This document shows positions 3,873 to 30,889 of a DNA stretch of 32,000 nucleotides, piece by piece; positions within the stretch are counted from its first letter, which is position 1; each line of letters opens with the position of its first letter. Source of the stretch: Acaryochloris marina MBIC11017 (lineage in GTDB: Bacteria; Cyanobacteriota; Cyanobacteriia; Thermosynechococcales; Thermosynechococcaceae); the NCBI RefSeq assembly GCF_000018105.1, contig NC_009929.1, positions 120,001 to 152,000 on the forward strand, given 5' to 3'. The notes below the pieces were generated by a model. The model saw nothing but the letters and a program-made list of their open reading frames with translations, ran no database searches and was not told where the DNA came from. The position numbers and the translations under genes were made by a program.

Positions 3873-5712
<1,840 letters not shown>

Positions 5713-19212: not shown

Positions 19213-20286
19213 ATGTTGAAAAAAATTCTGGTGGCTCTAGATCATTCAGCCTTTAGCCAGAAAACCTTTATGCAATCTCTGGTTTTAGCCAAGGCAACCC
19301 ATGCAAAGCTGATGCTGTTTCATGTCATCTCATCGACTGAGGAAGGATATCCTCCTTATCCCTTGATGCCAGGTGTGTTGGAGGAGTTTGACCTGTCATA
19401 TGCTGGAGTCGCAAACTCTTATCTCAATGACTTAGATGTCTTCAAAGCCAGCAGTTTTGAGTTACTCAGATCTCGAGCCAATCAGGCTAAAGAAAAGGGT
19501 CTGACCGTTTTCTACCAACAATCCATGGGAGATCCAGGTCGAGAGATTTGCGAAATCTCTCGACAATGGAAAGCGGATACGATCATCATCGGACGCCGCA
19601 GCCGAAATCTTCTTAGCAAAGTTCTATTGGGCAGTGTTAGCAACTACGTCACACACCATGCTCCTTGTTCAGTGTTGATTGTCCACCACCAGGATGTGCC
19701 GGAGTTCATCCCCAAACAATCTATAAATACTTTAGAGGCGAATAAACTGTCTTTCGAAGAATGGCGCGGAAAGTTGTCTTACCGCAGTATCTTAGTGGCC
19801 TTGGATGGGGGTGACATTAACCAGCCTATCGTTAATAGAGCAATAAATCTTGCCAAGAGAATGTCCACAGCTCGGTTGATGTTGCTGCATGTCTTGCCCC
19901 ATGATGTGGCAAAAGTTCCCATTCCTAGTCCCCCTCCAACCGCAATTGCTCAGCAACGGCTGGATAACTATCCTAGTTTGCGTGATGACATCCTCTACAG
20001 CCAACAACGACAATGGAATGCCTATGATAGTGATTGCTTACCCCAATTGCGATCCTATACTGCGATCGCAAGGGAAGCAGGTATTCCAACTGAATTTATT
20101 CAACAACCTGGATCTCCCGGTGAAGTCATTTGTGAATTTGCTAAGAACAGATCATCAGACTTAATTCTAGTGGGTAATCGAGGTCGTTCAGGACTTAGCG
20201 AAATGCTTCTTGGAAGTGTGGGGAAATATGTTGCGAACCATGCGTCCTGTTCCGTGATGGTCGTTCGTCCTCAGCAACCGGCATGA
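19213..20286 (+). CDS. Tandem universal stress protein (two UspA domains)
   Basis: Two repeats of the pattern ILVALD...(I/L)(I/L)(I/V)G(R/N)R(S/G)R...LLGSV(S/G)xYVxxHAxCSV(L/M)(I/V)V. The ATG is preceded by AGGAGG. Confidence 0.85.
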   Translation: MLKKILVALDHSAFSQKTFMQSLVLAKATHAKLMLFHVISSTEEGYPPYPLMPGVLEEFDLSYAGVANSYLNDLDVFKASSFELLRSRANQAKEKGLTVFYQQSMGDPGREICEISRQWKADTIIIGRRSRNLLSKVLLGSVSNYVTHHAPCSVLIVHHQDVPEFIPKQSINTLEANKLSFEEWRGKLSYRSILVALDGGDINQPIVNRAINLAKRMSTARLMLLHVLPHDVAKVPIPSPPPTAIAQQRLDNYPSLRDDILYSQQRQWNAYDSDCLPQLRSYTAIAREAGIPTEFIQQPGSPGEVICEFAKNRSSDLILVGNRGRSGLSEMLLGSVGKYVANHASCSVMVVRPQQPA

Positions 20287-20333
20287 AGACAAAAGATGTG
20301 CTCTTAGAACATCGCAGAGCGATCCAATAACTG

Positions 20334-20867
20334 TTGAGTGAAGGGAGTCAAACTATTGTGGATGGCAAACCTCATCCCAGTGGAGATCAGCGTTTTAGGG
20401 TGCTAGAGGCAACGATGAAACGTCATCAATATCAGCCCAATTCACTGATTGAAGTTTTGCATAAGGCTCAGGAATTGTTCGGATATTTAGAACGCGACAT
20501 CCTATTACACATTGCCCACAGTTTAAAGTTACCCCCTAGTCAAGTCTATGGTGTAGCCACCTTCTATCACTTTTTCTCGCTAACACCTTCTGGACGCCAT
20601 ACCTGTGTGGTTTGTATGGGAACGGCATGTTTTGTCAAAGGGGCTGCATCACTCCTGTCAACAGTGGAACAGATCGCTCACATTCAAGCTGGGGAAACTA
20701 CTCAAGATGGAGGCTTGTCACTCAGCACTGCTCGTTGCCTGGGGGCCTGTGGGAGTGCTCCTGCTGTGGTGTTGGATGGTCAAGTGGTTGGCTATCAAAC
20801 CTCAGAAAACTTAGGTCAGCAAGTCACGCAAATGATGGACCATCCTCAATCTAAGGTCGCAACATAA
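20334..20867 (+). CDS. hoxE: Bidirectional hydrogenase diaphorase subunit HoxE (NuoE-like, 2Fe-2S)
   Basis: HPSGDQRF...KRHQYQPNSLIEVLHKAQE matches cyanobacterial HoxE. The cluster cysteines are CVVCMGTAC and CLGACGSAP. The start is non-ATG: TTG 20334, or GTG 20358 after GAAGGGAG. Confidence 0.88.
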   Translation: MSEGSQTIVDGKPHPSGDQRFRVLEATMKRHQYQPNSLIEVLHKAQELFGYLERDILLHIAHSLKLPPSQVYGVATFYHFFSLTPSGRHTCVVCMGTACFVKGAASLLSTVEQIAHIQAGETTQDGGLSLSTARCLGACGSAPAVVLDGQVVGYQTSENLGQQVTQMMDHPQSKVAT

Positions 20868-22523
20868 ATGGATTTACAAGAGCTACAAACCCTTGCTGAG
20901 CGAGAACAAGAGATTCTCGATGCGCCTTGCATCCGCTGCTGTACGGTGGGGGGCTGTTTATCTGCTAATGCCTTGGCAGTAAAAGAACAAATTGAAGTTG
21001 AGATCGCAACTCAAGACCTCAACCCTCCTATGCACGTTCGGGGGGTGGGCTGCATGGGACTGTGTAGCCGAGGTCCCCTAGTCCGACTAGACCCCGCAGG
21101 CATTCTCTACGATCAAGTAACCCCCGAAGACGCCCCTGAACTGGTCCACGCCTGCCATAAAACCCTCCAACCCCATCTGCCTAAAGCCTTATCAAATAGT
21201 TCTCCGCTCCAACCCTCCTCTTATCAGCCCCGACATCACCCTTTCTTCACCCTGCAACACCCCATCGTCCTCGAAAACAGTGGTCATATTGACCCTAAGG
21301 AAATCAAGGATTATATGGCCCAAAAAGGCTATCTAGCCCTTACCCAAGCCCTTTACGATATGACCCCCAGTGATGTAATTGATCAGATTACTCAAAGTGG
21401 TCTTCGAGGGCGAGGCGGCGGCGGATACCCCACAGGCTTGAAATGGTCAACAGTCGCCAAAATGCCCCCTGGACAAAAGTATGTGATTTGCAATGGTGAT
21501 GAAGGTGACCCAGGTGCCTTTATGGATCGCAGTGTCTTAGAAAGTGATCCCCATCGGGTGTTAGAGGGGATGGCAATTGCAGCCTACGCTGTCGGTGCCA
21601 ACCAAGGCTACATCTATATTCGAGGTGAGTATCCTCTCGCCATCAATCACCTCGAAACGGCCCTGCGTCAAGCTCGCAAGCAAGGTTTACTCGGTAGTCA
21701 AATTTTTGAGTCTCCCTTTGACTTTCGGATCGATATCCGTATTGGGGCGGGGGCCTTTGTTTGTGGCGAGGAAACAGCCCTAATGGCCTCCATCGAAGGG
21801 AAGCGTGGATTACCTCACCCTCGACCACCTTACCCTGCTGAATCTGGACTCTGGGGTTGTCCAACATTGATTAATAATGTGGAAACTTTTGCCAATATCG
21901 CTCCGATTATTCGCAATGGGGCTGAATGGTTTGTTGGGATTGGTACAGACAAGAGCAAAGGAACCAAAGTGTTTTCCTTAGCGGGCAAGATCCAAAATAC
22001 CGGATTGATTGAAGTCCCCATGGGTACCTCCCTGCGCCAAATTGTTGAACAGATGGGCGGGGGTGTCCTTGATGGATCGGCTAAAGCAGTGCAAACGGGT
22101 GGCCCCTCAGGGGGATGTATTCCTGCCCATGCCTTTGATACACCCGTAGATTATGAATCTCTGACCCGTTTGGGGTCCATTATGGGGTCCGGTGGCATGA
22201 TTGTCATGGATCAGGCCACCAATATGGTGGATGTCGCTCGTTTCTTTATGGAATTTTGCATGGAAGAGTCCTGTGGTAAGTGTGTTCCCTGTAGAGCAGG
22301 AACGGTTCAGCTTTACCAGTTACTCACAAAAATCTGTGATGGAAAAGCAAGAAAAGAGGATTTAGAGTCTCTAAACCAACTTTGCGAAATGGTCAAGGAT
22401 ACTAGCCTATGTGGCCTTGGAAAATCTGCCCCCAATCCTATTCTTAGTACCCTACGTTTTTTCAAAGATGAGTACTTAACGCTGATGCATAATGAGGGTT
22501 CTGGCGATTATCACCCCCCATAA
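20868..22523 (+). CDS. hoxF: Bidirectional hydrogenase diaphorase subunit HoxF (NuoF-like; FMN/NAD(P)H, Fe-S)
   Basis: N-terminal thioredoxin-like 2Fe-2S domain, [23 protein letters not shown] and the 4Fe-4S motif [10 protein letters not shown]. The ATG immediately follows the hoxE TAA. Confidence 0.93.
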
Positions 22524-22651
22524 GATAGCGTCAGACTTGGGTTTAAGACTGTTGAGTTTTGTTAGTTCAGAAACGATTTAACTTAACATTACAGAACTCA
22601 AAAAATGTCCTACTTTTTCTATAAACTTAGTCCGAATAATTCTGAAGATGA

Positions 22652-22660
22652 GCATGCAAA
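22652..22660. repeat. Left copy of the 9-bp target-site duplication GCATGCAAA
   Basis: It is identical to 23730-23738 and directly abuts the left inverted repeat of the IS. Confidence 0.85.
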
Positions 22661-23729
22661 GGCACTGTTCATTTAAGAAGTGACTGCTAGGATGATTCTG
22701 CAGTATCAGTTTCAGAGCAATGCAATGCATCCATTGTCAAAGTGAGAACGTCGTTAAGAACGGAACTAAGACGCTGAAAACAGCTCAAGTGGTTCAGTAC
22801 TTTCTGTGCAAAGACTGTGGTCGTCGCTTCAACGAGCGTAGTGGGACGCCGATGGCGAGATTGAGAACGCCAGTGGAGACGATATCAATGGCCATCAATG
22901 CCCGCACGGAAGGCTTAGGGATTAGAGCCGCAGGGAGAGTACTCAGGAAATCTCCCAACAGTATTATCCTTTGGGAGAAGCGTTTATCCGCACAATTATC
23001 AAATTTCTCTCCTCCTTCTCCAAAAGAATCAGAGGTCACAATTGAAGGCGATGAAGTGTACACCCGCGTAGGTGAGAATCTCCCCCCCCCTGGCTTAGTG
23101 AAGGTTGGACCATTCATTTCATCGACCGTGAGAGTCGCTATTGGTTCGAGGCTCACGCGGGTCTTAAGGATGAATCATTATTTGAGAAAAGTGTCAAAGC
23201 TGCTTGGGATTGGGCTAAACCCAGTTCATCGATTCGTTGGTTCACAGATGGAGAACGTCGATACTCCAAGGTGTTGTGGAAGCTAGCGAGTACTTACTTG
23301 CCCAGGAGTACCACGACCCAGGCCTATCCTTTTCGCAAAGTATGGCGAGCGGGTTTAGAGGTGGCGATGAAGATCAAAGGTTCCCAAGGAAAACCTCGGG
23401 TAGTGTGGGTTAATCGAGAGCATCCTTATACGGCCATTAGCCCCAAGAGCGATGTTCATGCCAATCATCTTGAAGCCCTCCACAGTTCTTTGAGACGACG
23501 GGCTAGCGGTTATCGTAGACGCCAGAATCACTATGCCAAAACCGTTGAGGGATTACAAAGAGCCCTGAACGTGCAGCGATTGATTCACAATTGGTGTCGT
23601 ACTCACTACAGCCATGGATACCAGCGAACCCCAGCAATGGTGATGGGATTTATCCAAAGGCCCGTTAAGATTGGCGAAGTGTTGACCGTCAGAGCTTTTA
23701 ATTGCCTCACTTCTTAACTGAACAGTGCC
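22661..23729 (+). mobile_element. IS1-family insertion sequence (1069 bp)
   Basis: The 23-bp terminal inverted repeats (22661-22683 GGCACTGTTCATTTAAGAAGTGA versus the reverse complement of 23707-23729) match at 22/23 positions. They begin GGnnnTG, as IS1-family ends do. The element is flanked by 9-bp direct repeats and has a two-ORF transposase joined by a -1 frame change. Confidence 0.85.
22720..23717 (+). CDS. IS1-type transposase (InsA-like zinc-finger/HTH part plus DDE part, joined only by a -1 frameshift in a C9 run)
   Basis: - Frame 1: CIHCQS...CKDCGRRF zinc finger, an HTH (GIRAAGRVL) and IEGDEVYT.
- Frame 0 opens at 23076, just before the C9 run (23082-23090). It reads PWLSEGWTIHFIDRESRYWF...WFTDGERRY...HANHLEALHSSLRRR, which is DDE-like, and runs to the stop at 23717. 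Confidence 0.75.
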
Positions 23730-23738
23730 GCATGCAAA
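23730..23738. repeat. Right copy of the 9-bp target-site duplication GCATGCAAA
   Basis: It is identical to 22652-22660 and directly abuts the right inverted repeat. It contains the present ATG (23732) of the downstream gene. Confidence 0.85.
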
Positions 23739-24691
23739 ATCCTGTTGAACCAAGCCGCTTCCCTCATCCCCCAGTAAAGGTATGGGGGCGAGGCGTTAGG
23801 CTGACTTTGCTGACCACTCTTTGTAGTCTCTTCACCCTAGCTAACCCTCAGCTTGTTTCCGCAGAAACGGTCCTTGAAAAAATAGAACGTACCAGCACAG
23901 TAACCGCTGGAACGAACAAGAATACCCTTCCCTTTGCCTTCCAAGATGAGCAAGGGCAATTCCAGGGGTACTCGATTGAAATGCTGAAACAGATACAGGC
24001 CCAATTATCGAAAAAACTTGGTAAAGAGATTAATCTCGAACTTGTTGCGCTGACCCCCAACGAACGAATTCCTAAATTAGTCGCAGGGGAAGTAGACATT
24101 GTCTGTGATGCGAGCAGCTATACCTGGGAGCGGGACAAGGATATAGACTTTTCCGTCAGCTATGGTTTGACAGGCACTCGCTTGTTGATTAAGCAAGGGA
24201 AAAAGGCATGGGAACCTGAGATGTTGGTGAATCAGAAAATAGCTGCTGTGGCGGGCACAACGAATGAGATTGCGATTCGTCGAGCGCAGCCCAAAGCCCA
24301 AATCATCGTTCTCCCAGATCATACTCAGGGTTACAAAGCGCTGGAGCAGGGAACAGTTGATGCATTTGCAGCAGACGGCATTTTACTCGAAGGTTGGCTA
24401 CAAACCAGCCAGAACCCCGAGGACTTCACCGTTGTCGGGTATTTCTCAAGAGAGGGCATTGCCTGCATGGTGCCTGAGAATAATTCTAAATTTGTTAATC
24501 AAGTGAATTACTCACTCGTGCGTTTTATGGAGGGTTACTTAAAGGGTAAAGAACCCTATGTCAAAACGTTTGATCGTTGGTTTGGCCCTGAGGCTAAAGT
24601 CCCTCTCACTCAAGATCTGAGATCTTTAGTCCTAGAAACCATGCAGCTAGTGATTGATTTTAAAGAAGAAATTCCTGAAAGCGATCTTTAA
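23732..24691 (+). CDS. Periplasmic solute-binding protein, family 3 (amino-acid ABC-type), orphan
   Basis: Signal peptide LTLLTTLCSLFTLANPQLVSA, followed by a PBP type 2 pattern (TVTAGTNKNTLPFAF, GYSIEMLK, DIVCDASSYT, DFSVSY, VDAFAADGILL). No permease or ATPase genes are nearby. Confidence 0.8.
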   Translation: MQNPVEPSRFPHPPVKVWGRGVRLTLLTTLCSLFTLANPQLVSAETVLEKIERTSTVTAGTNKNTLPFAFQDEQGQFQGYSIEMLKQIQAQLSKKLGKEINLELVALTPNERIPKLVAGEVDIVCDASSYTWERDKDIDFSVSYGLTGTRLLIKQGKKAWEPEMLVNQKIAAVAGTTNEIAIRRAQPKAQIIVLPDHTQGYKALEQGTVDAFAADGILLEGWLQTSQNPEDFTVVGYFSREGIACMVPENNSKFVNQVNYSLVRFMEGYLKGKEPYVKTFDRWFGPEAKVPLTQDLRSLVLETMQLVIDFKEEIPESDL

Positions 24692-24989
24692 GATTACCAA
24701 TCGTGAACTGTTTATTTCAGGCCGTCCTCTGATGAGGCGAAAGTCGAGCACTGCCCCAATCAGTCGGATTCGATAGGGGATGGATTACGGTAGAACAAGA
24801 CTTGCAAACTGCGGTGAGATAAGGTTTGCAATGTGCCTGTTTCACCTTACCTTGACCAGCTATCACTCACGTTTTCCTCATATTGTCTATATAGCCTCAA
24901 ATTAAGAGGTCAGATGTCACATTCTCTGAGAACTGACACCTTTTCCTCAACTTTGACTGCAAACAGTTTAGTTGTGAGGGCATTCGATT

Positions 24990-25181
24990 ATGGCTACACT
25001 CAAGGATAAATCTCTATCCATCCAATCCTTAAGCAAAACAGTTCGACGCTTCCTGAGCTATATCGCTCAACCGATTCTCCGTATCTTTAGTCCCTCCCAT
25101 GATGATTATCCAAAGGTGGGGGTCCAACCCTTTGAAGGTGATCCAGCTGATCCAGATTTAAACCAGGAAGGGTCTTGGTAA
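24990..25181 (+). CDS. Small hypothetical ORF (63 aa) upstream of hoxU
   Basis: It is the only sizeable ORF in the 530-bp gap, on the same strand as hox, with GAGGG 9 nt upstream of the ATG. No recognisable motif, so this is weak. Confidence 0.3.
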   Translation: MATLKDKSLSIQSLSKTVRRFLSYIAQPILRIFSPSHDDYPKVGVQPFEGDPADPDLNQEGSW

Positions 25182-25221
25182 GGATTGGATACACAGCGGA
25201 AGGAAAAGGCTGGTATGGGCT

Positions 25222-25941
25222 ATGGATGTTAAGACCCTCAAGATTGACGATCAACTGATCAGTGCTCGGGGAGATGAAACAATCCTTGAGGCCGCTACCG
25301 CATCAGGGATTCATATTCCGACGCTATGCAACTTGCAGGGTGTTTCCTTATGGGGAGCCTGTCGACTCTGTTTAGTCGAGGTTAGTGGAAGTTCTAAGCT
25401 ATTGGCCGCTTGCGTCACACCAGTGGCAGAGGGGATGATCGTTCAAACCCAAACCAAACGGCTTAAACATTATCGGCGCATGATCGTTGAACTGCTATTT
25501 GCGGAAGGGAATCATATCTGTTCAGTATGTGTTTCCAATCACCACTGCGAATTGCAGGATCTTGCTATTGAGATGGGGATTGATCATGTGCGCTTTACCT
25601 ATCAATTCCCAGATCGCTCTGTTGATATTTCCCATCCTCAATTTGGCGTTGATCATAATCGCTGTGTTTTATGTACACGTTGTATTCGAGTTTGTGATGA
25701 GATTGAAGGGGCTCATACCTGGGATATGGCAGGTCGAGGCCGGAAGTCCCGAGTGATCACAGATTTGAACCAGCCTTGGGGGGAAGCCGAGAGCTGTACC
25801 GCTTGTGGAAAGTGTGTCAATGCCTGTCCCACAGGAGCCATCTTTCGACGTGGTTCAACGGTTGCGGAGATGGAGCACGATCGGAGCCAACTTGAATTTA
25901 TTTCTACTGCGAGAACGAGGCGAGAATGGGTGCAAAAGTGA
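25222..25941 (+). CDS. hoxU: Bidirectional hydrogenase diaphorase subunit HoxU (NuoG N-terminal-like Fe-S protein)
   Basis: It has a 2Fe-2S motif (CRLCLVEV), NHICSVCVSNHHCELQ, CVLCTRCIRVCDEIEG and CTACGKCVNACPTGA. It is colinear with my recollection of Synechocystis HoxU. Confidence 0.93.
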   Translation: MDVKTLKIDDQLISARGDETILEAATASGIHIPTLCNLQGVSLWGACRLCLVEVSGSSKLLAACVTPVAEGMIVQTQTKRLKHYRRMIVELLFAEGNHICSVCVSNHHCELQDLAIEMGIDHVRFTYQFPDRSVDISHPQFGVDHNRCVLCTRCIRVCDEIEGAHTWDMAGRGRKSRVITDLNQPWGEAESCTACGKCVNACPTGAIFRRGSTVAEMEHDRSQLEFISTARTRREWVQK

Positions 25942-26061
25942 GGGATAAATTCCAGACAGTGCAAGGAAATCAGTTTTGAGGTTGGAATAGTGAGTTTGAA
26001 TGCATCTCGTGAAGGTGTTCGAACTTAGAAGTGCACAACTATTTTGGGTTACGGAGGTAGG

Positions 26062-26607
26062 ATGGCAAAACTGAAGTTAGCGACTGTTTGGCTAGGCGGA
26101 TGCTCAGGATGCCATATGTCTTTCCTAGACCTTGACGAGTGGTTATTTGAGTTGGCCCACCAAGTCGATCTGGTCTACAGCCCTTTTATGGATGCCAAGC
26201 AGTATCCACAAGAAGTGGATGTGGCACTCGTCGAAGGCGCAATAGCCAATACCGATCATTGGGAGATGATTCATCAGGTTCGTGATTGCACTCAATACCT
26301 GATTGCCTTTGGGGATTGTGCTGTTACGGGGAATGTCACCGCCTTACGTAATCTTTTGGGTACTGCGGAGGGGGTACTTGAGCGGTCTTACATAAACTTG
26401 GCTGATCTGGTGCCTCAGATTCCTGCAGAGGAAGCGATTGTCCCCCCTTTATTGGATTGGGTTAAACCCGTACATACCGTTGTTCCCGTCGATCTCTATT
26501 TACCGGGTTGCCCACCATCACCTTCTCGAATCAAATTTGTATTAGAAGCGCTACTGCAGGGGAAGAGGCCTCAACTCGAGGGTCGAGATCAAATTAAATT
26601 CGGGTGA
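26062..26607 (+). CDS. hoxY: [NiFe] hydrogenase small subunit HoxY
   Basis: MAKLKLATVWLGGCSGCHMSFLD, FGDCAVTGN and LPGCPP supply the proximal cluster ligands. ATG 26062 is preceded by GGAGGTAGG; the ORF-track start at 26044 is TTG. Confidence 0.92.
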   Translation: MAKLKLATVWLGGCSGCHMSFLDLDEWLFELAHQVDLVYSPFMDAKQYPQEVDVALVEGAIANTDHWEMIHQVRDCTQYLIAFGDCAVTGNVTALRNLLGTAEGVLERSYINLADLVPQIPAEEAIVPPLLDWVKPVHTVVPVDLYLPGCPPSPSRIKFVLEALLQGKRPQLEGRDQIKFG

Positions 26608-26680: not shown

Positions 26681-27226
26681 ATGCTTAAAGTTAGAGACAT
26701 TATGACCCAAGAGGTGATTGCGATTCAGGATACTGCAACAGTGGCACAAGCCATTGCTCTAATGCAATACCATAAAGTCCGCTCCCTCATTATCGAGCAC
26801 CCTGAAGGTCAAACCGCTTACGGGATCATCACTGAGCGAGATATTGTTTACCGAGTCATGGCTGTTGGCAAAGATCCCCATGAAATTGGCGTTCAAGAGC
26901 TTGTCCGCGAACCCTGTATTACAGCCCATCCTGATCTCACTGTGGAAGAAATGGCTCAATTGTTTGCAGCAGCAGGCATTCAGAGAGCGCCAGTAATTGA
27001 TGGACAGCAGCTTTTAGGCATCATTTCCGTCACTGACTTAGTGATGAAAACGGATGGAAAGCAGAACTATCAAGCCGATTGGCTCGCGTTGCAAGTTGAA
27101 AATGCGTTAAAGCATGCCCGGATTATTTGTGGTGATCCGCAAACCCAGATTTCAAAAGAATGCTCTGTAGCCTGGGATGTGGTTGAAGCTTTTGAAGACC
27201 AAGCTGCCTTAAACGGAGCTATTTAG
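26681..27226 (+). CDS. CBS-pair protein with a short C-terminal CP12-like module (CBS-CP12 fusion, copy 1)
   Basis: Two CBS motifs (VRDIMTQEVIAI...GIITERDIV and ITAHPDLTV...GIISVTDLV) are followed by CGDPQTQISKEC-SVAWDVVEAFE, that is, a CP12 N-terminal Cys pair plus an AWDxVEE core. ATG 26681 is preceded by AAGGAG. Confidence 0.8.
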   Translation: MLKVRDIMTQEVIAIQDTATVAQAIALMQYHKVRSLIIEHPEGQTAYGIITERDIVYRVMAVGKDPHEIGVQELVREPCITAHPDLTVEEMAQLFAAAGIQRAPVIDGQQLLGIISVTDLVMKTDGKQNYQADWLALQVENALKHARIICGDPQTQISKECSVAWDVVEAFEDQAALNGAI

Positions 27227-27272
27227 TCCTTCAGAACAGGCTACTTTATCACTTTCAGTGTAGGTACCTCAG

Positions 27273-28700
27273 ATGCACACTAAATCATCGAGACAATATT
27301 TTAGACAAGTGCTGTTGTTTCTAATGGCCTTGGTCATTACCCCATTGCTATTAGCGGTTTCTGCGGTTGGAGCCCCCAATTTCGTGACGCAAGATCAGAT
27401 CACCGTGGGGGCAACAGAGGTCATTCAAGGTAACTATTATGCAACTGGGGACCGTATAACGGTTGACGGGACCTTAAAAGATAATCTGTTTGCAGCAGGA
27501 GACACCATTCAACTATCGGGCACCGTTGAGAAGGATGTTTACTTAGCGGGTGATGAAATAACGATTGATGGCACTGTTAAAGGCGATGCTATTCTGGCCG
27601 GCGCTTTGGTTGCCCTCAATGGGTCTGTTGAAGGCGATTTAATCGCCGCAGGGCAAGCCGTGGTGGTGAACGGAACGGTTCAAGACGACGTGCGGATAGC
27701 AGGAGAGGCACTGCTTCTCAAAAATCAGGCTCGGGTGAAAGATGACATGATCGCCGCAGGGCTGAGCCTGGAAAGTCAACCCCAAACGTCCATCGGTGGC
27801 ACTCTCACGGTTGCGAGTGGTCAAGCACTACTGGCAGGAACGGTTGATCAGGATGTTGTGGGGGGTATGGGAGGACTAACCTTAGAGGGGACAGTGGGTC
27901 AAGATGTGGCCGTTACCGTCGGTGATAACCAGACTTGGAAACCTATATTCGGACCTAGCCCTCGCCTTAAGATTCCTGATGTGCCGGCAGGATTAACCCT
28001 CACAGATTCGGCCCAAGTCAAAGGTCGGTTGACCTACAAATCACCAACTACTGCCTCCCTAAAAGATGGATCACAAGTGACAGGTAAAATCACGCATCAA
28101 CCGATTCCAGAATGGGAACCGACGCCAGTCAAGCCGACGAATATCGTGCTAGATCAACTGCAGCGCTTGCTGACGATTGGGTTAGTGGGATGTGCCATGC
28201 TTTGGGCATTTCCAAAGTGGACAGAAGGATTAACGCAGAATATTCAGACTCGACCGTTGAGAACGTTGGGTTGGGGCATTGTGACCAGTGTGTTGGTGGG
28301 AGTAGCAAGTGTTGTGATCGCAGTTCTGACCATCCTTGCATTTATTGTGCTTATCTTGACCCTCCAAGGATTAGCCTGGCCCATTCTGGGGGTCGGAACC
28401 CTCGCTAATCTGGCCCTATGGGTCGGTATTGGCAGCTTCGTGAGTTTGATTGCCCCCGTATTAATCAGCAACCTAGGTGGACGCTGGCTCTGCAGCCAAT
28501 TCAATTTGAATAAGACCGCGAACCGATTTATCCCATTCCTGATGGGGGTAGTGGTTCTGATGTTGATTACCGCTATTCCCCTGATCGGCGGAATCATCAG
28601 CATTGTCATTATTTTCTTGAGCTTAGGTGCACTCTGGAATTGGGGAAGGTCACGGTGGGCTAAGCCCCCCTTGCAAGCTCAGGAGGCACTAGTGGGTTGA
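27273..28700 (+). CDS. Signal-peptide protein with a ~8-turn 17-residue-repeat beta-helix (bactofilin-like) and a C-terminal 4-TM domain
   Basis: - N-terminus: LLFLMALVITPLLLAVSAVGA.
- aa 59-216: 17-residue repeats G-x-x-(I/V)-x-(I/L/V)-x-G-(T/S)-V-x-x-D-(I/V/L)-x-x-A, e.g. GDTIQLSGTVEKDVYLA, GDEITIDGTVKGDAILA, GALVALNGSVEGDLIAA, GQAVVVNGTVQDDVRIA.
- aa ~297-465: four long hydrophobic segments. Confidence 0.75.
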   Translation: MHTKSSRQYFRQVLLFLMALVITPLLLAVSAVGAPNFVTQDQITVGATEVIQGNYYATGDRITVDGTLKDNLFAAGDTIQLSGTVEKDVYLAGDEITIDGTVKGDAILAGALVALNGSVEGDLIAAGQAVVVNGTVQDDVRIAGEALLLKNQARVKDDMIAAGLSLESQPQTSIGGTLTVASGQALLAGTVDQDVVGGMGGLTLEGTVGQDVAVTVGDNQTWKPIFGPSPRLKIPDVPAGLTLTDSAQVKGRLTYKSPTTASLKDGSQVTGKITHQPIPEWEPTPVKPTNIVLDQLQRLLTIGLVGCAMLWAFPKWTEGLTQNIQTRPLRTLGWGIVTSVLVGVASVVIAVLTILAFIVLILTLQGLAWPILGVGTLANLALWVGIGSFVSLIAPVLISNLGGRWLCSQFNLNKTANRFIPFLMGVVVLMLITAIPLIGGIISIVIIFLSLGALWNWGRSRWAKPPLQAQEALVG

Positions 28701-28740
28701 GCGGAGATAGGTTCTGGCATAACCGATGGGAGAAATCGCA

Positions 28741-29367
28741 ATGATGAAAGTTGCAGACATTATGACTACAGAAGTCATCAAAATTCGGAATTCGGCGAAG
28801 GTTGCTGAGGCCGTCCGATTGATGCGACGACATGGAATTCATGCCCTAATTGTTGATCGGAACCATGAGCAAGATGCTTACGGAATTGTGACCGCCTTCG
28901 ATATCGTTGCGAAGGTAACGGCCTTTGGTCGTGATCCACGGCAGGTGAGAGTCTATGAAATTATGACGAAACCTTGTTTGGTACTCAATCCGGAACTCGG
29001 GGTCGAATATGCCGCACGATTATTGACCACTACCGGTATACATGCCGCACCCATTATCCAGTGGAGTCTGCTGGGCATTCTCTCAATCTCTGACATTCTC
29101 GATCAAGGGGATTTCTTGGAGAATCCCTTGGAGGTGGAGCTTGCTCAAAAAACACAGCAATTAATTGCGGACGCTCATGCAATTTGTAAGCAAAAGGGCA
29201 CTAACTCCAAAGCCTGTAGACAAGCTTGGCAAGACGTTGATGCAGTCCAAGCGGAAGCGGCTCATCAACGGGCCGAAAAGCTCGAAAAAACAGCTTTTGA
29301 AGCGTTTTGTGAGGAGTACCCAGAAGCCTTCAAAGATCGAGAGTATGATGCCTGGTGTAGTGGATAG
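28741..29367 (+). CDS. CBS-pair protein with a full-length but variant CP12 module (CBS-CP12 fusion, copy 2)
   Basis: The CBS pair (VADIMTTEVIKI...GIVTAFDIV and LVLNPELGV...GILSISDIL) is followed by CKQKGTNSKAC-RQAWQDVDAVQAEAAHQRAEK...FCEEYPEAFKDREYDAWC. ATG 28741 aligns with the start of copy 1; ATG 28726 is an alternative. Confidence 0.8.
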   Translation: MMKVADIMTTEVIKIRNSAKVAEAVRLMRRHGIHALIVDRNHEQDAYGIVTAFDIVAKVTAFGRDPRQVRVYEIMTKPCLVLNPELGVEYAARLLTTTGIHAAPIIQWSLLGILSISDILDQGDFLENPLEVELAQKTQQLIADAHAICKQKGTNSKACRQAWQDVDAVQAEAAHQRAEKLEKTAFEAFCEEYPEAFKDREYDAWCSG

Positions 29368-29404: not shown

Positions 29405-30889
29405 ATGCCTCAGAGAATCATCATTGATCCAGTCACTCGGATTGAAGGCCATGCCAAAATCTCGATTTACTTGGATGACGCAGGTGAAGTTACGGATGCT
29501 CGATTTCATGTGACGGAGTTTCGTGGATTTGAGAAGTTTTGCGAAGGCCGACCCTTTTGGGAGATGCCGGGGATTACCCCGCGCATCTGTGGGATTTGTC
29601 CAGTCAGCCACCTACTCGCGTCAGCGAAAGCTGGAGACCAGATTCTTGCCGTCCACATTCCTCCAGCGGCTGAGAAATTGCGCCGCTTAATGAACTTAGG
29701 ACAGATTATTCAGTCCCATGCCTTGAGTTTTTTTCATCTGAGTAGTCCTGACCTACTGTTGGGGTGGGAGAGCGATCCAGCTCAGCGAAATGTATTTGGC
29801 CTGATGGCCGCAGAGCCGGATCTGGCCCGCAGCGGTATCCGACTACGCCAGTTTGGTCAGGAGGTGATTCAGCATTTAGGAGGGCAGAAAATTCACCCGG
29901 CTTGGGCTGTCCCCGGAGGTGTGCGATCGGCTCTAACCGACCAGGGACGTGAACAAATCCGAGCGGGGTTGCTAGAGGTACGATCAACGGCCCTTTCAAC
30001 CCTGAAACGGTTCAAAGACTTGTTAGAAGACCATGCCAGTGAGGCTCGAATATTTGGGAATTTCCCCAGCTTATTTATGGGGTTAATCAACCCAAAGGGA
30101 CTCTGGGAACATTACCAGGGCTGTTTACGGTTTGTGGATAGTGTCGGCAATATCATTGCGGATCATCTTGATCCGAGCCAATTCCAGTCCTTTATTGGCG
30201 AAGCGGTTCAGACTGATTCTTATTTGAAGTCTCCCTACTATCGTCCCTTGGGCTATCCTGATCAGACTCCAGGTCTGTGCCGTTTAGAGAGTGGCATGTA
30301 TCGGGTGGGACCGTTAGCCCGACTCAACGTCTGCGATCGCATGGGCACACCCTTAGCCGATCAGGAATTGCAAGAATTCCGCCAGCGGGGCAATGGGACC
30401 GTTACCTCTTCCTTCTACTACCATTACGCTCGCTTAATTGAGATCTTGGCCTGTATTGAACGCATTGAGCAGCAGATAGAGGATCCAGGACTTTGTCAAC
30501 CGCCCTTAAGAGCCCAGGCAGATGTCAATCAATTAGAGGGGGTTGGAGTGAGTGAAGCACCACGGGGGACGCTGTTTCATCACTATCAAGTGGATGCAAC
30601 GGGGTTACTCCAATCCGTTAATCTGATCATCGCCACGGGGCAAAATAATCTGGCCATGAACCGCACCGTTGCTCAGATTGCTCGTCACTACCTCCATGGA
30701 CCCGATATTCCTGAATCGATGCTCAATCGGGTCGAAGCAGGTATTCGGGCCTTTGATCCTTGTTTAAGTTGCTCGACTCATGCGGCAGGCCAGATGCCAC
30801 TTCATATCCAGTGCAAATCAGCACATAGTGGCCAAGTCCTAAGTGAGGTATGGAGAACCTCAACGGGGGAATTTCAAGTTAAAGGTTGA
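29405..30889 (+). CDS. hoxH: [NiFe] hydrogenase large subunit HoxH
   Basis: It carries the N-terminal Ni-Fe ligand motif [10 protein letters not shown] and the C-terminal [10 protein letters not shown] 35-aa extension follows, of the kind removed by the maturation endopeptidase. Confidence 0.95.

What the first reader, a model, noticed from the sequence alone, without database searches (positions are those of the whole stretch)
22652..23738. Recent IS1-family insertion inside the hox operon, landing on the start codons of the next gene
Seen:
- The 1069-bp element has 23-bp terminal inverted repeats (22/23 match, starting GGCACTG, i.e. GGnnnTG).
- It is flanked by a perfect 9-bp direct repeat GCATGCAAA (22652-22660 and 23730-23738).
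- Removing the element and one repeat copy restores ...CTGAAG ATG AGC ATG CAA AAT CCT... . The target was therefore codons 2-4 of the solute-binding-protein gene, whose original ATG is at 22648.
- The duplication happens to regenerate an in-frame ATG (23732), but with IS DNA in place of the native upstream region.

Established: IS1-family elements make 8-9-bp duplications, and intact duplications indicate no later rearrangement.

Inference: the element separates hoxEF from hoxU-hoxY-hoxH by an extra ~1.1 kb. It may be polar on the hydrogenase structural genes, or it may drive them from an outward promoter. Either way, this strain's Hox expression may differ from that of relatives.
Basis: partly seen in the sequence, partly recalled or inferred. 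Interest (0 to 1): 0.6.

Follow-up and report, generated by a model that had tools for sequence, protein, structure and literature searches.

The report
IS1-type insertion in hydrogenase cluster
A 1.07-kb ISAcma40-like (IS1-family) insertion sequence sits between hoxF and a binding-protein gene on plasmid pREB4 of Acaryochloris marina MBIC11017; it is real and strain-specific, but it is already annotated and of an ordinary kind.

Summary
A 1069-bp element (22661-23729) has 23-nt inverted repeats (22/23) and a perfect 9-bp duplication, GCATGCAAA. A 98.65%-identical relative (Logan SRR13264212) has the exact empty site with one GCATGCAAA, and three more distant Acaryochloris relatives are also unoccupied. 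Seven independent short-read assemblies carry the occupied left junction.

The window is A. marina MBIC11017 plasmid pREB4: the element's ORFs are AM1_D0178/D0179. The element is 95.9% identical in DNA to a sister copy whose joined product RefSeq names 'IS1-like element ISAcma40 family transposase'.

- The ATG inside the duplication is the start conserved in all Acaryochloris relatives compared. The upstream ATG (22648) is ACG in strains S15 and Moss Beach. The binding-protein ORF is therefore intact and has lost only its native 5' region.
- The transposase is split at a C9 tract. Most relatives carry T2-3C6-7 with ORF2 in the +1 frame, whereas this copy puts ORF2 in the -1 frame. It is probably attenuated or non-autonomous.

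The effect on hoxUYH is untested. The element points the same way as hox, and no terminator-like or outward promoter-like site was found. This is an ordinary, already annotated insertion of low to moderate interest.

The parts
22661..23729 (+). ISAcma40-like IS1-family insertion sequence, 1069 bp, transposase on the same strand as the hox genes
   Evidence: IRs and duplication. It is 95.9% nt identical to sister copy L096, whose ORF2 is P0123; RefSeq names the joined product of that copy 'IS1-like element ISAcma40 family transposase'. It is absent from the empty sites in L093, L010 and L011, and the N-terminus of L094's product implies an unoccupied site there too.
22652..22660 (.). Left copy of the target-site duplication GCATGCAAA; contains an ATG (22654)
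   Evidence: a single copy is present in empty site L093
23730..23738 (.). Right copy of the target-site duplication; its ATG (23732) starts the intact binding-protein ORF
22661..22683 (+). Left inverted repeat (GGCACTGTTCATTTAAGAAGTGA)
   Evidence: the GGCACTG ends are conserved across the family
23707..23729 (-). Right inverted repeat (22/23 match to the left one)
22720..23286 (+). ORF1 = AM1_D0178 (188 aa): zinc ribbon, HTH and first catalytic D up to the C tract, then an out-of-frame tail
   Evidence: Exact match to ABW32673.1. IS1/IS1595 zinc domain NF050000 at 39 bits, cut-off 28. hhalign against E. coli InsAB' gives 97% probability.
23082..23090 (+). C9 homopolymer where ORF1 (frame 1) and ORF2 (frame 0, i.e. 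-1) meet; the family norm is T2-3C6-7 with ORF2 in the +1 frame
   Evidence: the same C9 is seen in Illumina-based contig L095
23076..23717 (+). ORF2 reading frame (rest of the DDE domain: WFTDGERRY, HANHLEA); GenBank calls only its last 147 aa as AM1_D0179
   Evidence: invariant D176 and E251 in alignment A2
22648..22683 (+). Remnant 11-codon ORF (MSMQRHCSFKK*) left behind the native ribosome-binding region of the binding-protein gene; it ends inside the left IR
   Evidence: read directly
23732..24691 (+). Family-3 solute-binding protein gene (GrrP-like), complete ORF with signal peptide; IS DNA now lies upstream
   Evidence: PF00497 at 1.1e-23; TIGR04262 at 195 bits, cut-off 190; orthologue starts compared
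20358..20867 (+). hoxE
   Evidence: NF005747 at 267 bits; gene call in L001
20868..22523 (+). hoxF
   Evidence: Complex1_51K and NADH_4Fe-4S domains
25222..25941 (+). hoxU
   Evidence: NF005745 at 427 bits
26062..26607 (+). hoxY
   Evidence: PF01058; gene call in L009
29405..30889 (+). hoxH
   Evidence: PF27537 HoxH and PF00374 on the L009 gene call; annotated 'Ni/Fe hydrogenase subunit alpha' in S15

Best explanation
The window is part of plasmid pREB4 of Acaryochloris marina MBIC11017. A copy of an ISAcma40-type IS1-family insertion sequence transposed into the hox gene cluster after this strain split from its closest sequenced relatives. It made a 9-bp (possibly 8-bp) target duplication that contains the conserved start codon of the solute-binding-protein gene downstream of hoxF.

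Consequences that are shown:
- hoxEF is now 1078 bp further from the binding-protein gene and hoxU.
- The binding-protein ORF is intact, but IS DNA has replaced its native 5' leader.
- An 11-codon remnant ORF behind the old leader ends inside the left IR.

Consequences that are inferred:
- The element points the same way as hox and shows no intrinsic-terminator-like site.
- Cyanobacteria lack Rho (my own knowledge, not tested here).
- Transcription from upstream therefore probably reads through into the binding-protein gene and hoxU. I expect only mild polarity on hoxUYH and mainly weaker translation of the binding protein.

The element's own transposase needs recoding between two frames. Relatives place ORF2 in the +1 frame at a T2-3C6-7 tract. 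This copy has C9, which places ORF2 in the -1 frame. It is probably a tract-length variant that makes little or no full-length transposase and would move only with help from sister copies.
For: Identity of the source:
- ORF1 equals AM1_D0178 exactly.
- ORF2 equals AM1_D0179.
- The joined 331-aa product equals WP_148216080.1 at 331 of 331 positions once one proline of the tract is removed.
- hoxEFUYH is reported on pREB4 (PMC9324425).

Anatomy.

Empty sites:
- L093, 98.65% identical, ungapped, one copy of the 9-mer.
- S15 and Moss Beach plasmids, 88% identical.
- L094, whose product begins MSMQNP.

Occupied junctions appear in independent read sets.

Start codon: S15's annotated start is the ATG inside the 9-mer, and the codon corresponding to 22648 is ACG there.

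Family assignment:
- NCBIfam's best hit is the IS1 transposase model.
- The zinc domain scores above its cut-off.
- hhalign against InsAB' gives 97% probability, E 1.2e-10.
- Across about 55 relatives the ends are GGCACTG, the length is 1065-1069 bp and the duplications are 8-9 bp.

Frames:
-. Of 64 loci, 51 are +1, 9 in frame, 3 in the -1 frame and 1 in frame with an extra codon.
- The sister copy has CTT+C7.
- C9 is confirmed in an Illumina-derived contig.

No + strand terminator-like or promoter-like site lies in 22300-25400, no Rfam element matches, and the IS-to-gene junction shows no unusual fold.

All hox ORFs downstream are intact.
Against: - No transcript or activity data for genes downstream of the element could be retrieved; the supplementary tables held no values for AM1_D0178-D0182.
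- The promoter and terminator scans are crude consensus matches, and cyanobacterial promoters often lack a -35 element.
- A long-range IRL-IRR duplex in read-through RNA could occlude the start codon, which lies 3 nt after the right IR. It could also attract RNase III. This was not tested.
- The C9 tract could still support -1 slippage (C_CCC_CCC), so 'attenuated' is an inference.
- RefSeq issues a 331-aa joined protein for this locus. That requires skipping 2 nt of C9, and I could not see how this was modelled.
- The three MBIC11017 copies visible to me differ by about 4% from one another, so no donor copy was identified. The copy number in the full genome could not be counted because the genome is not in the searchable collections.
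Confidence: 0.85

Rival explanations
1. The insertion is strongly polar. It uncouples hoxUYH from the hoxE promoter, so MBIC11017 has little or no bidirectional hydrogenase compared with IS-free relatives.
For: The element adds 1.07 kb of mostly untranslated or frame-broken RNA between hoxF and hoxU. The native leader of the next gene is displaced. The IRs could form a 23-bp duplex in read-through RNA next to the start codon.
Against: The element is co-oriented with hox and shows no intrinsic-terminator-like site on the + strand. Cyanobacteria lack Rho (my own knowledge). hoxU, hoxY and hoxH are intact ORFs with full-length family matches. [quoted passage not shown] A 530-bp spacer before hoxU could hold its own promoter.
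Confidence: 0.15
2. The C9 copy is still autonomous. Ribosomal -1 slippage on C_CCC_CCC, or RNA-polymerase stuttering on the 9-C run, restores the frame, so this copy makes its own transposase.
For: Both ORF halves are free of stops, and all invariant family residues including D111, D176 and E251 are kept. The same C9 version is found in a second genomic context, contig L095 from DRR194265, and another family member has the same frame arrangement (L025). RefSeq issues a joined protein for the locus.
Against: Only 3 of 64 family loci have this frame, against 51 in +1. The sister copies in the same strain have CTT+C7. L095 may be a k-mer-graph chimera of copies. Slippage on C/G runs is less documented than on A/T runs (my own knowledge; the review read discusses T9 and T5C5 cases).
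Confidence: 0.25
3. The insertion is old and fixed in the lineage, or it is an assembly artefact of a repeated element.
For: The IS is repeated in the genome, and short-read contigs break about 30 nt inside it. The copy differs by about 4% from the other copies seen.
Against: The duplication is perfect and the IRs match 22/23. The empty site is present in a 98.65%-identical relative and in three more distant ones. Both junctions are recovered from independent read sets.
Confidence: 0.03

Closest known systems
ISAcma40 (IS1 family; RefSeq label 'IS1-like element ISAcma40 family transposase', WP_076611790.1)
   Same: The terminal inverted repeats are the same. Length is 1068 vs 1069 bp. DNA identity is 95.9%, and 319 of 331 amino acids match. 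The duplication is 9 bp. The host species is the same.
   Different: The tract is CT+C9 here instead of CTT+C7, so ORF2 lies in the -1 frame rather than +1. This copy keeps the catalytic D in WFTDGE, where the chromosomal reference copy reads WFTGGE.
IS1 of Escherichia coli (InsA / InsAB')
   Same: The N-terminal zinc ribbon, HTH and first catalytic aspartate are homologous (hhalign 97%; hmmsearch 1.4e-11). The ends fit GGnnnTG, the duplication is 8-9 bp, and the transposase is made from two frames.
   Different: The element is 1069 bp rather than 768 bp. The transposase is 331 aa rather than 232 aa, with about 40 extra residues between the second D and the E. No Pfam DDE_Tnp_IS1 hit was found, and the NCBIfam IS1 score of 58.7 is below the cut-off of 100. 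Recoding is at a pyrimidine/C tract into the +1 frame in most members, not -1 at A6C.
Roseiflexus IS630-family element with transcriptional slippage at T5C5 (reviewed in PMC5009743)
   Same: A T-then-C pyrimidine tract separates the two transposase frames, and loss of one C in the message would give the full-length protein. This is the same arithmetic as the +1 arrangement of this family.
   Different: It belongs to a different IS family. The mechanism here is untested. The upstream hairpin needed in Roseiflexus is only weakly supported here.

Membership tests
IS1 family (ISfinder definition, recalled from memory) | Terminal inverted repeats of about 20-25 bp beginning GGnnnTG | tested here: met
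   23-nt IRs starting GGCACTG; the same ends occur in about 55 related loci.
IS1 family (ISfinder definition, recalled from memory) | Target-site duplication of 8-9 bp | tested here: met
   9 bp here; mostly 8 bp and some 9 bp in relatives; 9 bp with 8 of 9 matching in sister copy L096.
IS1 family (ISfinder definition, recalled from memory) | Transposase N-terminus with an InsA-type zinc ribbon and HTH | tested here: met
   NF050000 at 39 bits, cut-off 28. A profile of 13 relatives against E. coli InsAB' gives hhalign probability 97%, E 1.2e-10, residues 1-124. hmmsearch gives 1.4e-11.
IS1 family (ISfinder definition, recalled from memory) | InsB-type DDE catalytic domain (curated model thresholds) | tested here: inconclusive
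   NF033558 transpos_IS1 is the best family hit (E 7.4e-16, model positions 1-167 of 199, reaching the WFTDG motif), but 58.7 bits is below the cut-off of 100. No Pfam DDE_Tnp_IS1 hit even at E<=10. No solved-structure relative was found.
IS1 family (ISfinder definition, recalled from memory) | Two ORFs fused by -1 frameshifting at A6C (classical IS1 group) | tested here: not met
   There is no A6C. The frames meet at a C tract: most relatives need +1, some are a single ORF, and this copy needs -1. Single-ORF subgroups are accepted within the family (my recollection), so this does not exclude membership.
ISAcma40 (same element or isoform) | Near-identical ends and high identity to the reference element | tested here: met
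   The IRs are identical. DNA identity is 95.9% over 1069 nt, and 319 of 331 aa match WP_076611790.1. The ISfinder entry itself could not be consulted.
Cyanobacterial bidirectional [NiFe] hydrogenase (hoxEFUYH) cluster | All five structural genes present and intact around the insertion | tested here: met
   HoxE and HoxU equivalog models score above their cut-offs. HoxF and HoxY domains are present. HoxH carries PF27537 and PF00374. Gene order is the same as in S15 and Moss Beach.

The most novel reading that the evidence does not exclude
The C tract of this IS1 subgroup may act as both a programmed recoding site and an unstable length switch. The +1 state (T2-3C6-7) is kept in 51 of 64 loci across members only 45-70% identical in protein. 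This suggests regulated synthesis of transposase, either by +1 ribosomal slippage at CCC_C or by RNA-polymerase slippage that drops one C. Copies in the same genome differ only in tract length: L017 vs L042-44, and L058 vs L086. On this reading, the hox-embedded copy is locked in a rare C9 state, so strong read-through from the hox promoter cannot make transposase, which is why an insertion in a co-oriented, inducible operon is tolerated.
Probability: 0.2. Interest if true: 0.45.

Novelty: already known. Interest (0 to 1): 0.22.

Why it matters
For people working on Acaryochloris: the type strain MBIC11017 is the strain used for the hox expression studies cited in PMC8949462. It carries an insertion sequence inside its hydrogenase cluster that IS-free relatives lack, so its Hox regulation and the expression of the adjacent binding protein may not represent the species. 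Papers that compare the hox plasmid region among strains (PMC9324425, PMC8949462) do not mention the insertion in the passages I read. Beyond that, this is a routine example of IS1-family transposition. The only wider point is the conserved C-tract recoding site of this cyanobacterial IS1 subgroup, whose mechanism appears unstudied in the literature I could search.

Tried and rejected
- PLSDB megablast with the element found no match. pREB plasmids of MBIC11017 are evidently not in that collection, so copies could not be counted there.
- An exact IR pattern scan of genome contigs found no match, so the source genome is not in that collection either.
- Exact-protein look-ups for ORF1, WP_148216080.1 and AM1_D0179 in the assembly index found nothing. 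The source was identified instead through exact cluster look-ups.
- Pfam gave no significant hit for the transposase, and a PDB profile search gave only noise.
- Hypothetical C8- or C10-based products of this copy are not in the protein collection. This argues against C9 being an error of the 2008 assembly, and the tract was then confirmed in L095.
- Supplementary tables of the A. marina oxygen RNA-seq paper held only pathway lists for AM1_D0176, AM1_D0177 and AM1_D0182, with no expression values.
- Literature searches for ISAcma40 and for IS1-family frameshifting in cyanobacteria found nothing specific. Swingley 2008 is not held.
- Rfam gave no credible hit in 20000-26000.
- The IS-to-gene junction folds no better than shuffled sequence, z = -0.03.
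- A 5-bp hairpin upstream of the C tract pairs in 87.6% of cells, but column shuffles give 86.5%, only 2 cells show double changes, and RNAalifold does not recover it. This is inconclusive.
- I considered that the binding protein and the 63-aa ORF after it might be a GrrP/GrrA RiPP pair, because TIGR04262 is just above its cut-off. I rejected this because the 63-aa product is not glycine-rich.

Full report
**The observation.** Two 23-nt arms at 22661-22683 and 23707-23729 are 96% complementary (22/23). They are flanked directly by two perfect copies of GCATGCAAA at 22652-22660 and 23730-23738. A degenerate pattern for the arm matches nowhere else in the window at up to three mismatches, and none is expected in shuffled sequence. 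The element is 1069 bp.

**The surroundings.** Family scans identify:
- hoxE (20358-20867) and hoxF (20868-22523).
- The element.
- A family-3 solute-binding protein gene (23732-24691), GrrP-like and just above that model's cut-off.
- A 63-aa ORF.
- hoxU (25222-25941) and hoxY (26062-26607).
- A CBS protein, a 475-aa bactofilin-like/DUF8173 protein and a CBS-CP12 protein.
- hoxH (29405-30889).

The 475-aa ORF is therefore not hoxH. Gene order is the same in the plasmids of A. marina S15 and Acaryochloris sp. 'Moss Beach'.

**The source.**
- ORF1 of the element (188 aa, including its out-of-frame tail) is exactly AM1_D0178 of Acaryochloris marina MBIC11017, on a 226,680-bp replicon.
- The last 147 aa of ORF2 are exactly AM1_D0179.
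- RefSeq lists a joined 331-aa 'IS1 family transposase' (WP_148216080.1) on a contig of the same size. It equals my conceptual fusion at all 331 positions once one proline of the tract is removed.
- The literature places hoxEFUYH on pREB4 of this strain (PMC9324425).

The window is therefore pREB4 of the type strain, and the element is already annotated.

**Is the insertion real and recent?**
- Eight short-read (Logan) contigs encode the identical HoxF. Seven of them end 2-30 nt inside the left end of the element and carry the occupied junction ...GCATGCAAAGG.... The eighth stops before the site.
- A contig with the identical binding protein starts inside the right end of the element and carries ...CAGTGCCGCATGCAAAATCC.
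- A contig from a different sample (SRR13264212, L093) is 98.65% identical over 1333 nt.
- S15 and Moss Beach (88% identical) are also empty. A relative whose product is 90% identical in protein begins MSMQNP, which implies an uninterrupted site.

The insertion therefore post-dates the split from a relative only about 1.4% diverged in this region.

The sister copy recovered from DRR374621 (L096) has flanks ATTATCTCA and ATTATATCA, matching at 8 of 9 positions. This shows what an older insertion of the same element looks like. The perfect duplication here fits a younger event.

No donor was identified. The copies visible to me (chromosome, pREB3, pREB4) differ by about 4% in protein. The full genome is not in the searchable collections.

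- In S15 and Moss Beach that triplet is ACG. RefSeq starts the S15 gene at the ATG that lies inside the 9-mer.
- That second ATG is present in all Acaryochloris relatives compared. The first ATG is present only in the window's clade and in the relative with the 90%-identical product, where a gene caller did use it.
- The more conservative reading is that the duplication contains the native start codon itself. The copy at 23732 is then not a lucky regeneration.
- Either way, the protein after the insertion lacks at most Met-Ser and keeps its signal peptide.
- What is lost is the native leader, purine-rich CTGAAGATGAGC, now replaced by GAACAGTGCCGC. A 24-nt block (22613-22637, containing TATAAA) is perfectly conserved with S15 in an otherwise roughly 80%-identical spacer. 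It now lies 1.1 kb from the ORF.
- Behind the old leader, an 11-codon ORF now ends in the left IR.

**Family.**
- NCBIfam's best hit is the IS1 transposase model (E 7.4e-16), which aligns through the WFTDG motif but scores below the curated cut-off. The IS1/IS1595 zinc-ribbon domain scores above its cut-off. Pfam gives nothing significant.
- A profile of 13 relatives aligns with E. coli InsAB' over the zinc ribbon, HTH and first catalytic aspartate at 97% probability.
- In about 55 related loci from many cyanobacteria the ends are GGCACTG, the length is 1065-1069 bp, and the duplications are 8 bp, sometimes 9 bp.
- RefSeq names the chromosomal sister 'IS1-like element ISAcma40 family transposase'. 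The window copy is 95.9% identical to that sister in DNA and has identical IRs.
- It is therefore an ISAcma40 isoform within a divergent cyanobacterial branch of the IS1 family.
- It does not share the classical A6C -1 frameshift site.

**The transposase frames.**
- ORF1 (frame 1) and ORF2 (frame 0) meet at a run of nine C (23082-23090).
- Across 64 family loci, the distance between the GDE and GW motifs puts ORF2 in the +1 frame in 51, in frame in 9, in the -1 frame in 3 (this copy, L095 and L025) and in frame with an extra codon in 1.
- The usual tract is CTTCCCCCCC, CTTTCCCCCC or CGTCCCCCCC.
- The other MBIC11017-type copies have CTT+C7. The window copy has a T-to-C change plus one extra C.
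- C9 is not a sequencing error of the 2008 assembly. An Illumina-derived contig (DRR194265, L095) carries the same tract within a 270-nt identical stretch. Products expected from C8 or C10 are not on record.
- Copies of one element in one genome that differ only in tract length (L017 vs L042-44; L058 vs L086) show that the tract length is unstable.
- I infer that the +1 arrangement is a programmed recoding site. It could work by ribosomal +1 slippage on CCC_C, or by loss of one C through polymerase slippage, as described for a Roseiflexus IS630 element at T5C5 (PMC5009743).
- I also infer that the window copy is an off-register variant that makes little full-length enzyme. Both halves are otherwise intact and keep all invariant residues, so residual -1 slippage cannot be excluded.
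- A candidate 5-bp hairpin just upstream of the tract is not supported beyond sequence conservation.

**Effect on hox.** This part is inference.
- The element is co-oriented with the cluster.
- The consensus scan finds no terminator-like and no promoter-like site on the + strand between 22300 and 25400.
- No Rfam element is present, and the junction RNA folds no better than shuffled sequence.
- Cyanobacteria lack Rho (my own knowledge).
- All downstream hox genes are intact.
[quoted passage not shown] It does not say which genes were measured.
- I therefore expect read-through from hoxE/F, or from the transposase promoter, into the binding-protein gene and hoxU, with at most moderate polarity and with reduced translation of the binding protein.
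- Strong polarity remains possible (about 15%). There is no evidence for an outward promoter.
- I could not retrieve expression values for AM1_D0176-D0190.

**Verdict.** This is a correct and careful observation of an ordinary thing. It is a strain-specific, fairly recent, already annotated ISAcma40-type IS1-family insertion in the hox cluster of pREB4. The functional consequence remains untested. Interest is low to moderate. The only lead with wider reach is the conserved C-tract recoding site of this IS1 subgroup.

Noticed in passing
window 23047-23100; loci L012-L091, L095, L096: This cyanobacterial IS1 subgroup has a conserved pyrimidine/C tract (T2-3C6-7) between the two halves of the transposase. 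ORF2 is in the +1 frame in 51 of 64 loci, in frame in 9, in the -1 frame in 3 and in frame with an extra codon in 1. Copies within one genome differ only in tract length. This looks like a programmed +1 recoding site that is also length-unstable, unlike the A6C -1 site of classical IS1.
   Followed up: partly
window 22613-22637: A 24-nt block, TTTTTCTATAAACTTAGTCCGAAT, is identical in the window and in A. marina S15, within a hoxF-to-binding-protein spacer that is otherwise only about 80% identical. It contains TATAAA about 25 nt upstream of the start codons and may be a promoter or regulatory site. The IS now separates it from the ORF.
   Followed up: no
window 26681-29367: Three non-hox genes lie between hoxY and hoxH: a CBS-domain protein, a 475-aa bactofilin-like/DUF8173 protein annotated 'polymer-forming cytoskeletal protein' in S15, and a CBS-CP12 fusion protein. 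The arrangement is conserved in S15 and Moss Beach. In Moss Beach the 475-aa gene is split into two annotated ORFs.
   Followed up: partly
window 24990-25181: A 63-aa ORF between the binding-protein gene and hoxU is annotated as a hypothetical protein at the same place in S15 and Moss Beach. It is not glycine-rich, so it is not a GrrA-type peptide, even though the neighbouring binding protein scores just above the GrrP model cut-off.
   Followed up: partly
protein P0122 / P0123 (chromosomal ISAcma40 copy of A. marina; DNA in L096): The chromosomal copy that carries the ISAcma40 name reads WFTGGERRY where the family-invariant second catalytic aspartate should be (WFTDGERRY in the window copy). 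The named reference copy may itself be catalytically dead.
   Followed up: no
L011 about 5400-5574 (Acaryochloris sp. 'Moss Beach' pMB02): Relative to S15, an extra G in a G run (GGGGGG vs GGGGG) near the 5' end of the binding-protein gene goes with a shortened annotation: the gene starts at 5574 rather than about 5363. The binding-protein gene may therefore be disrupted independently in that strain.
   Followed up: no
RefSeq protein WP_148216080.1 (P0126) vs window 23080-23093: The 331-aa RefSeq product reads ...NLPPW..., which needs two of the nine C's to be skipped. A -1 slip would give NLPPPW (332 aa). I could not work out how the annotation pipeline joined the frames.
   Followed up: partly
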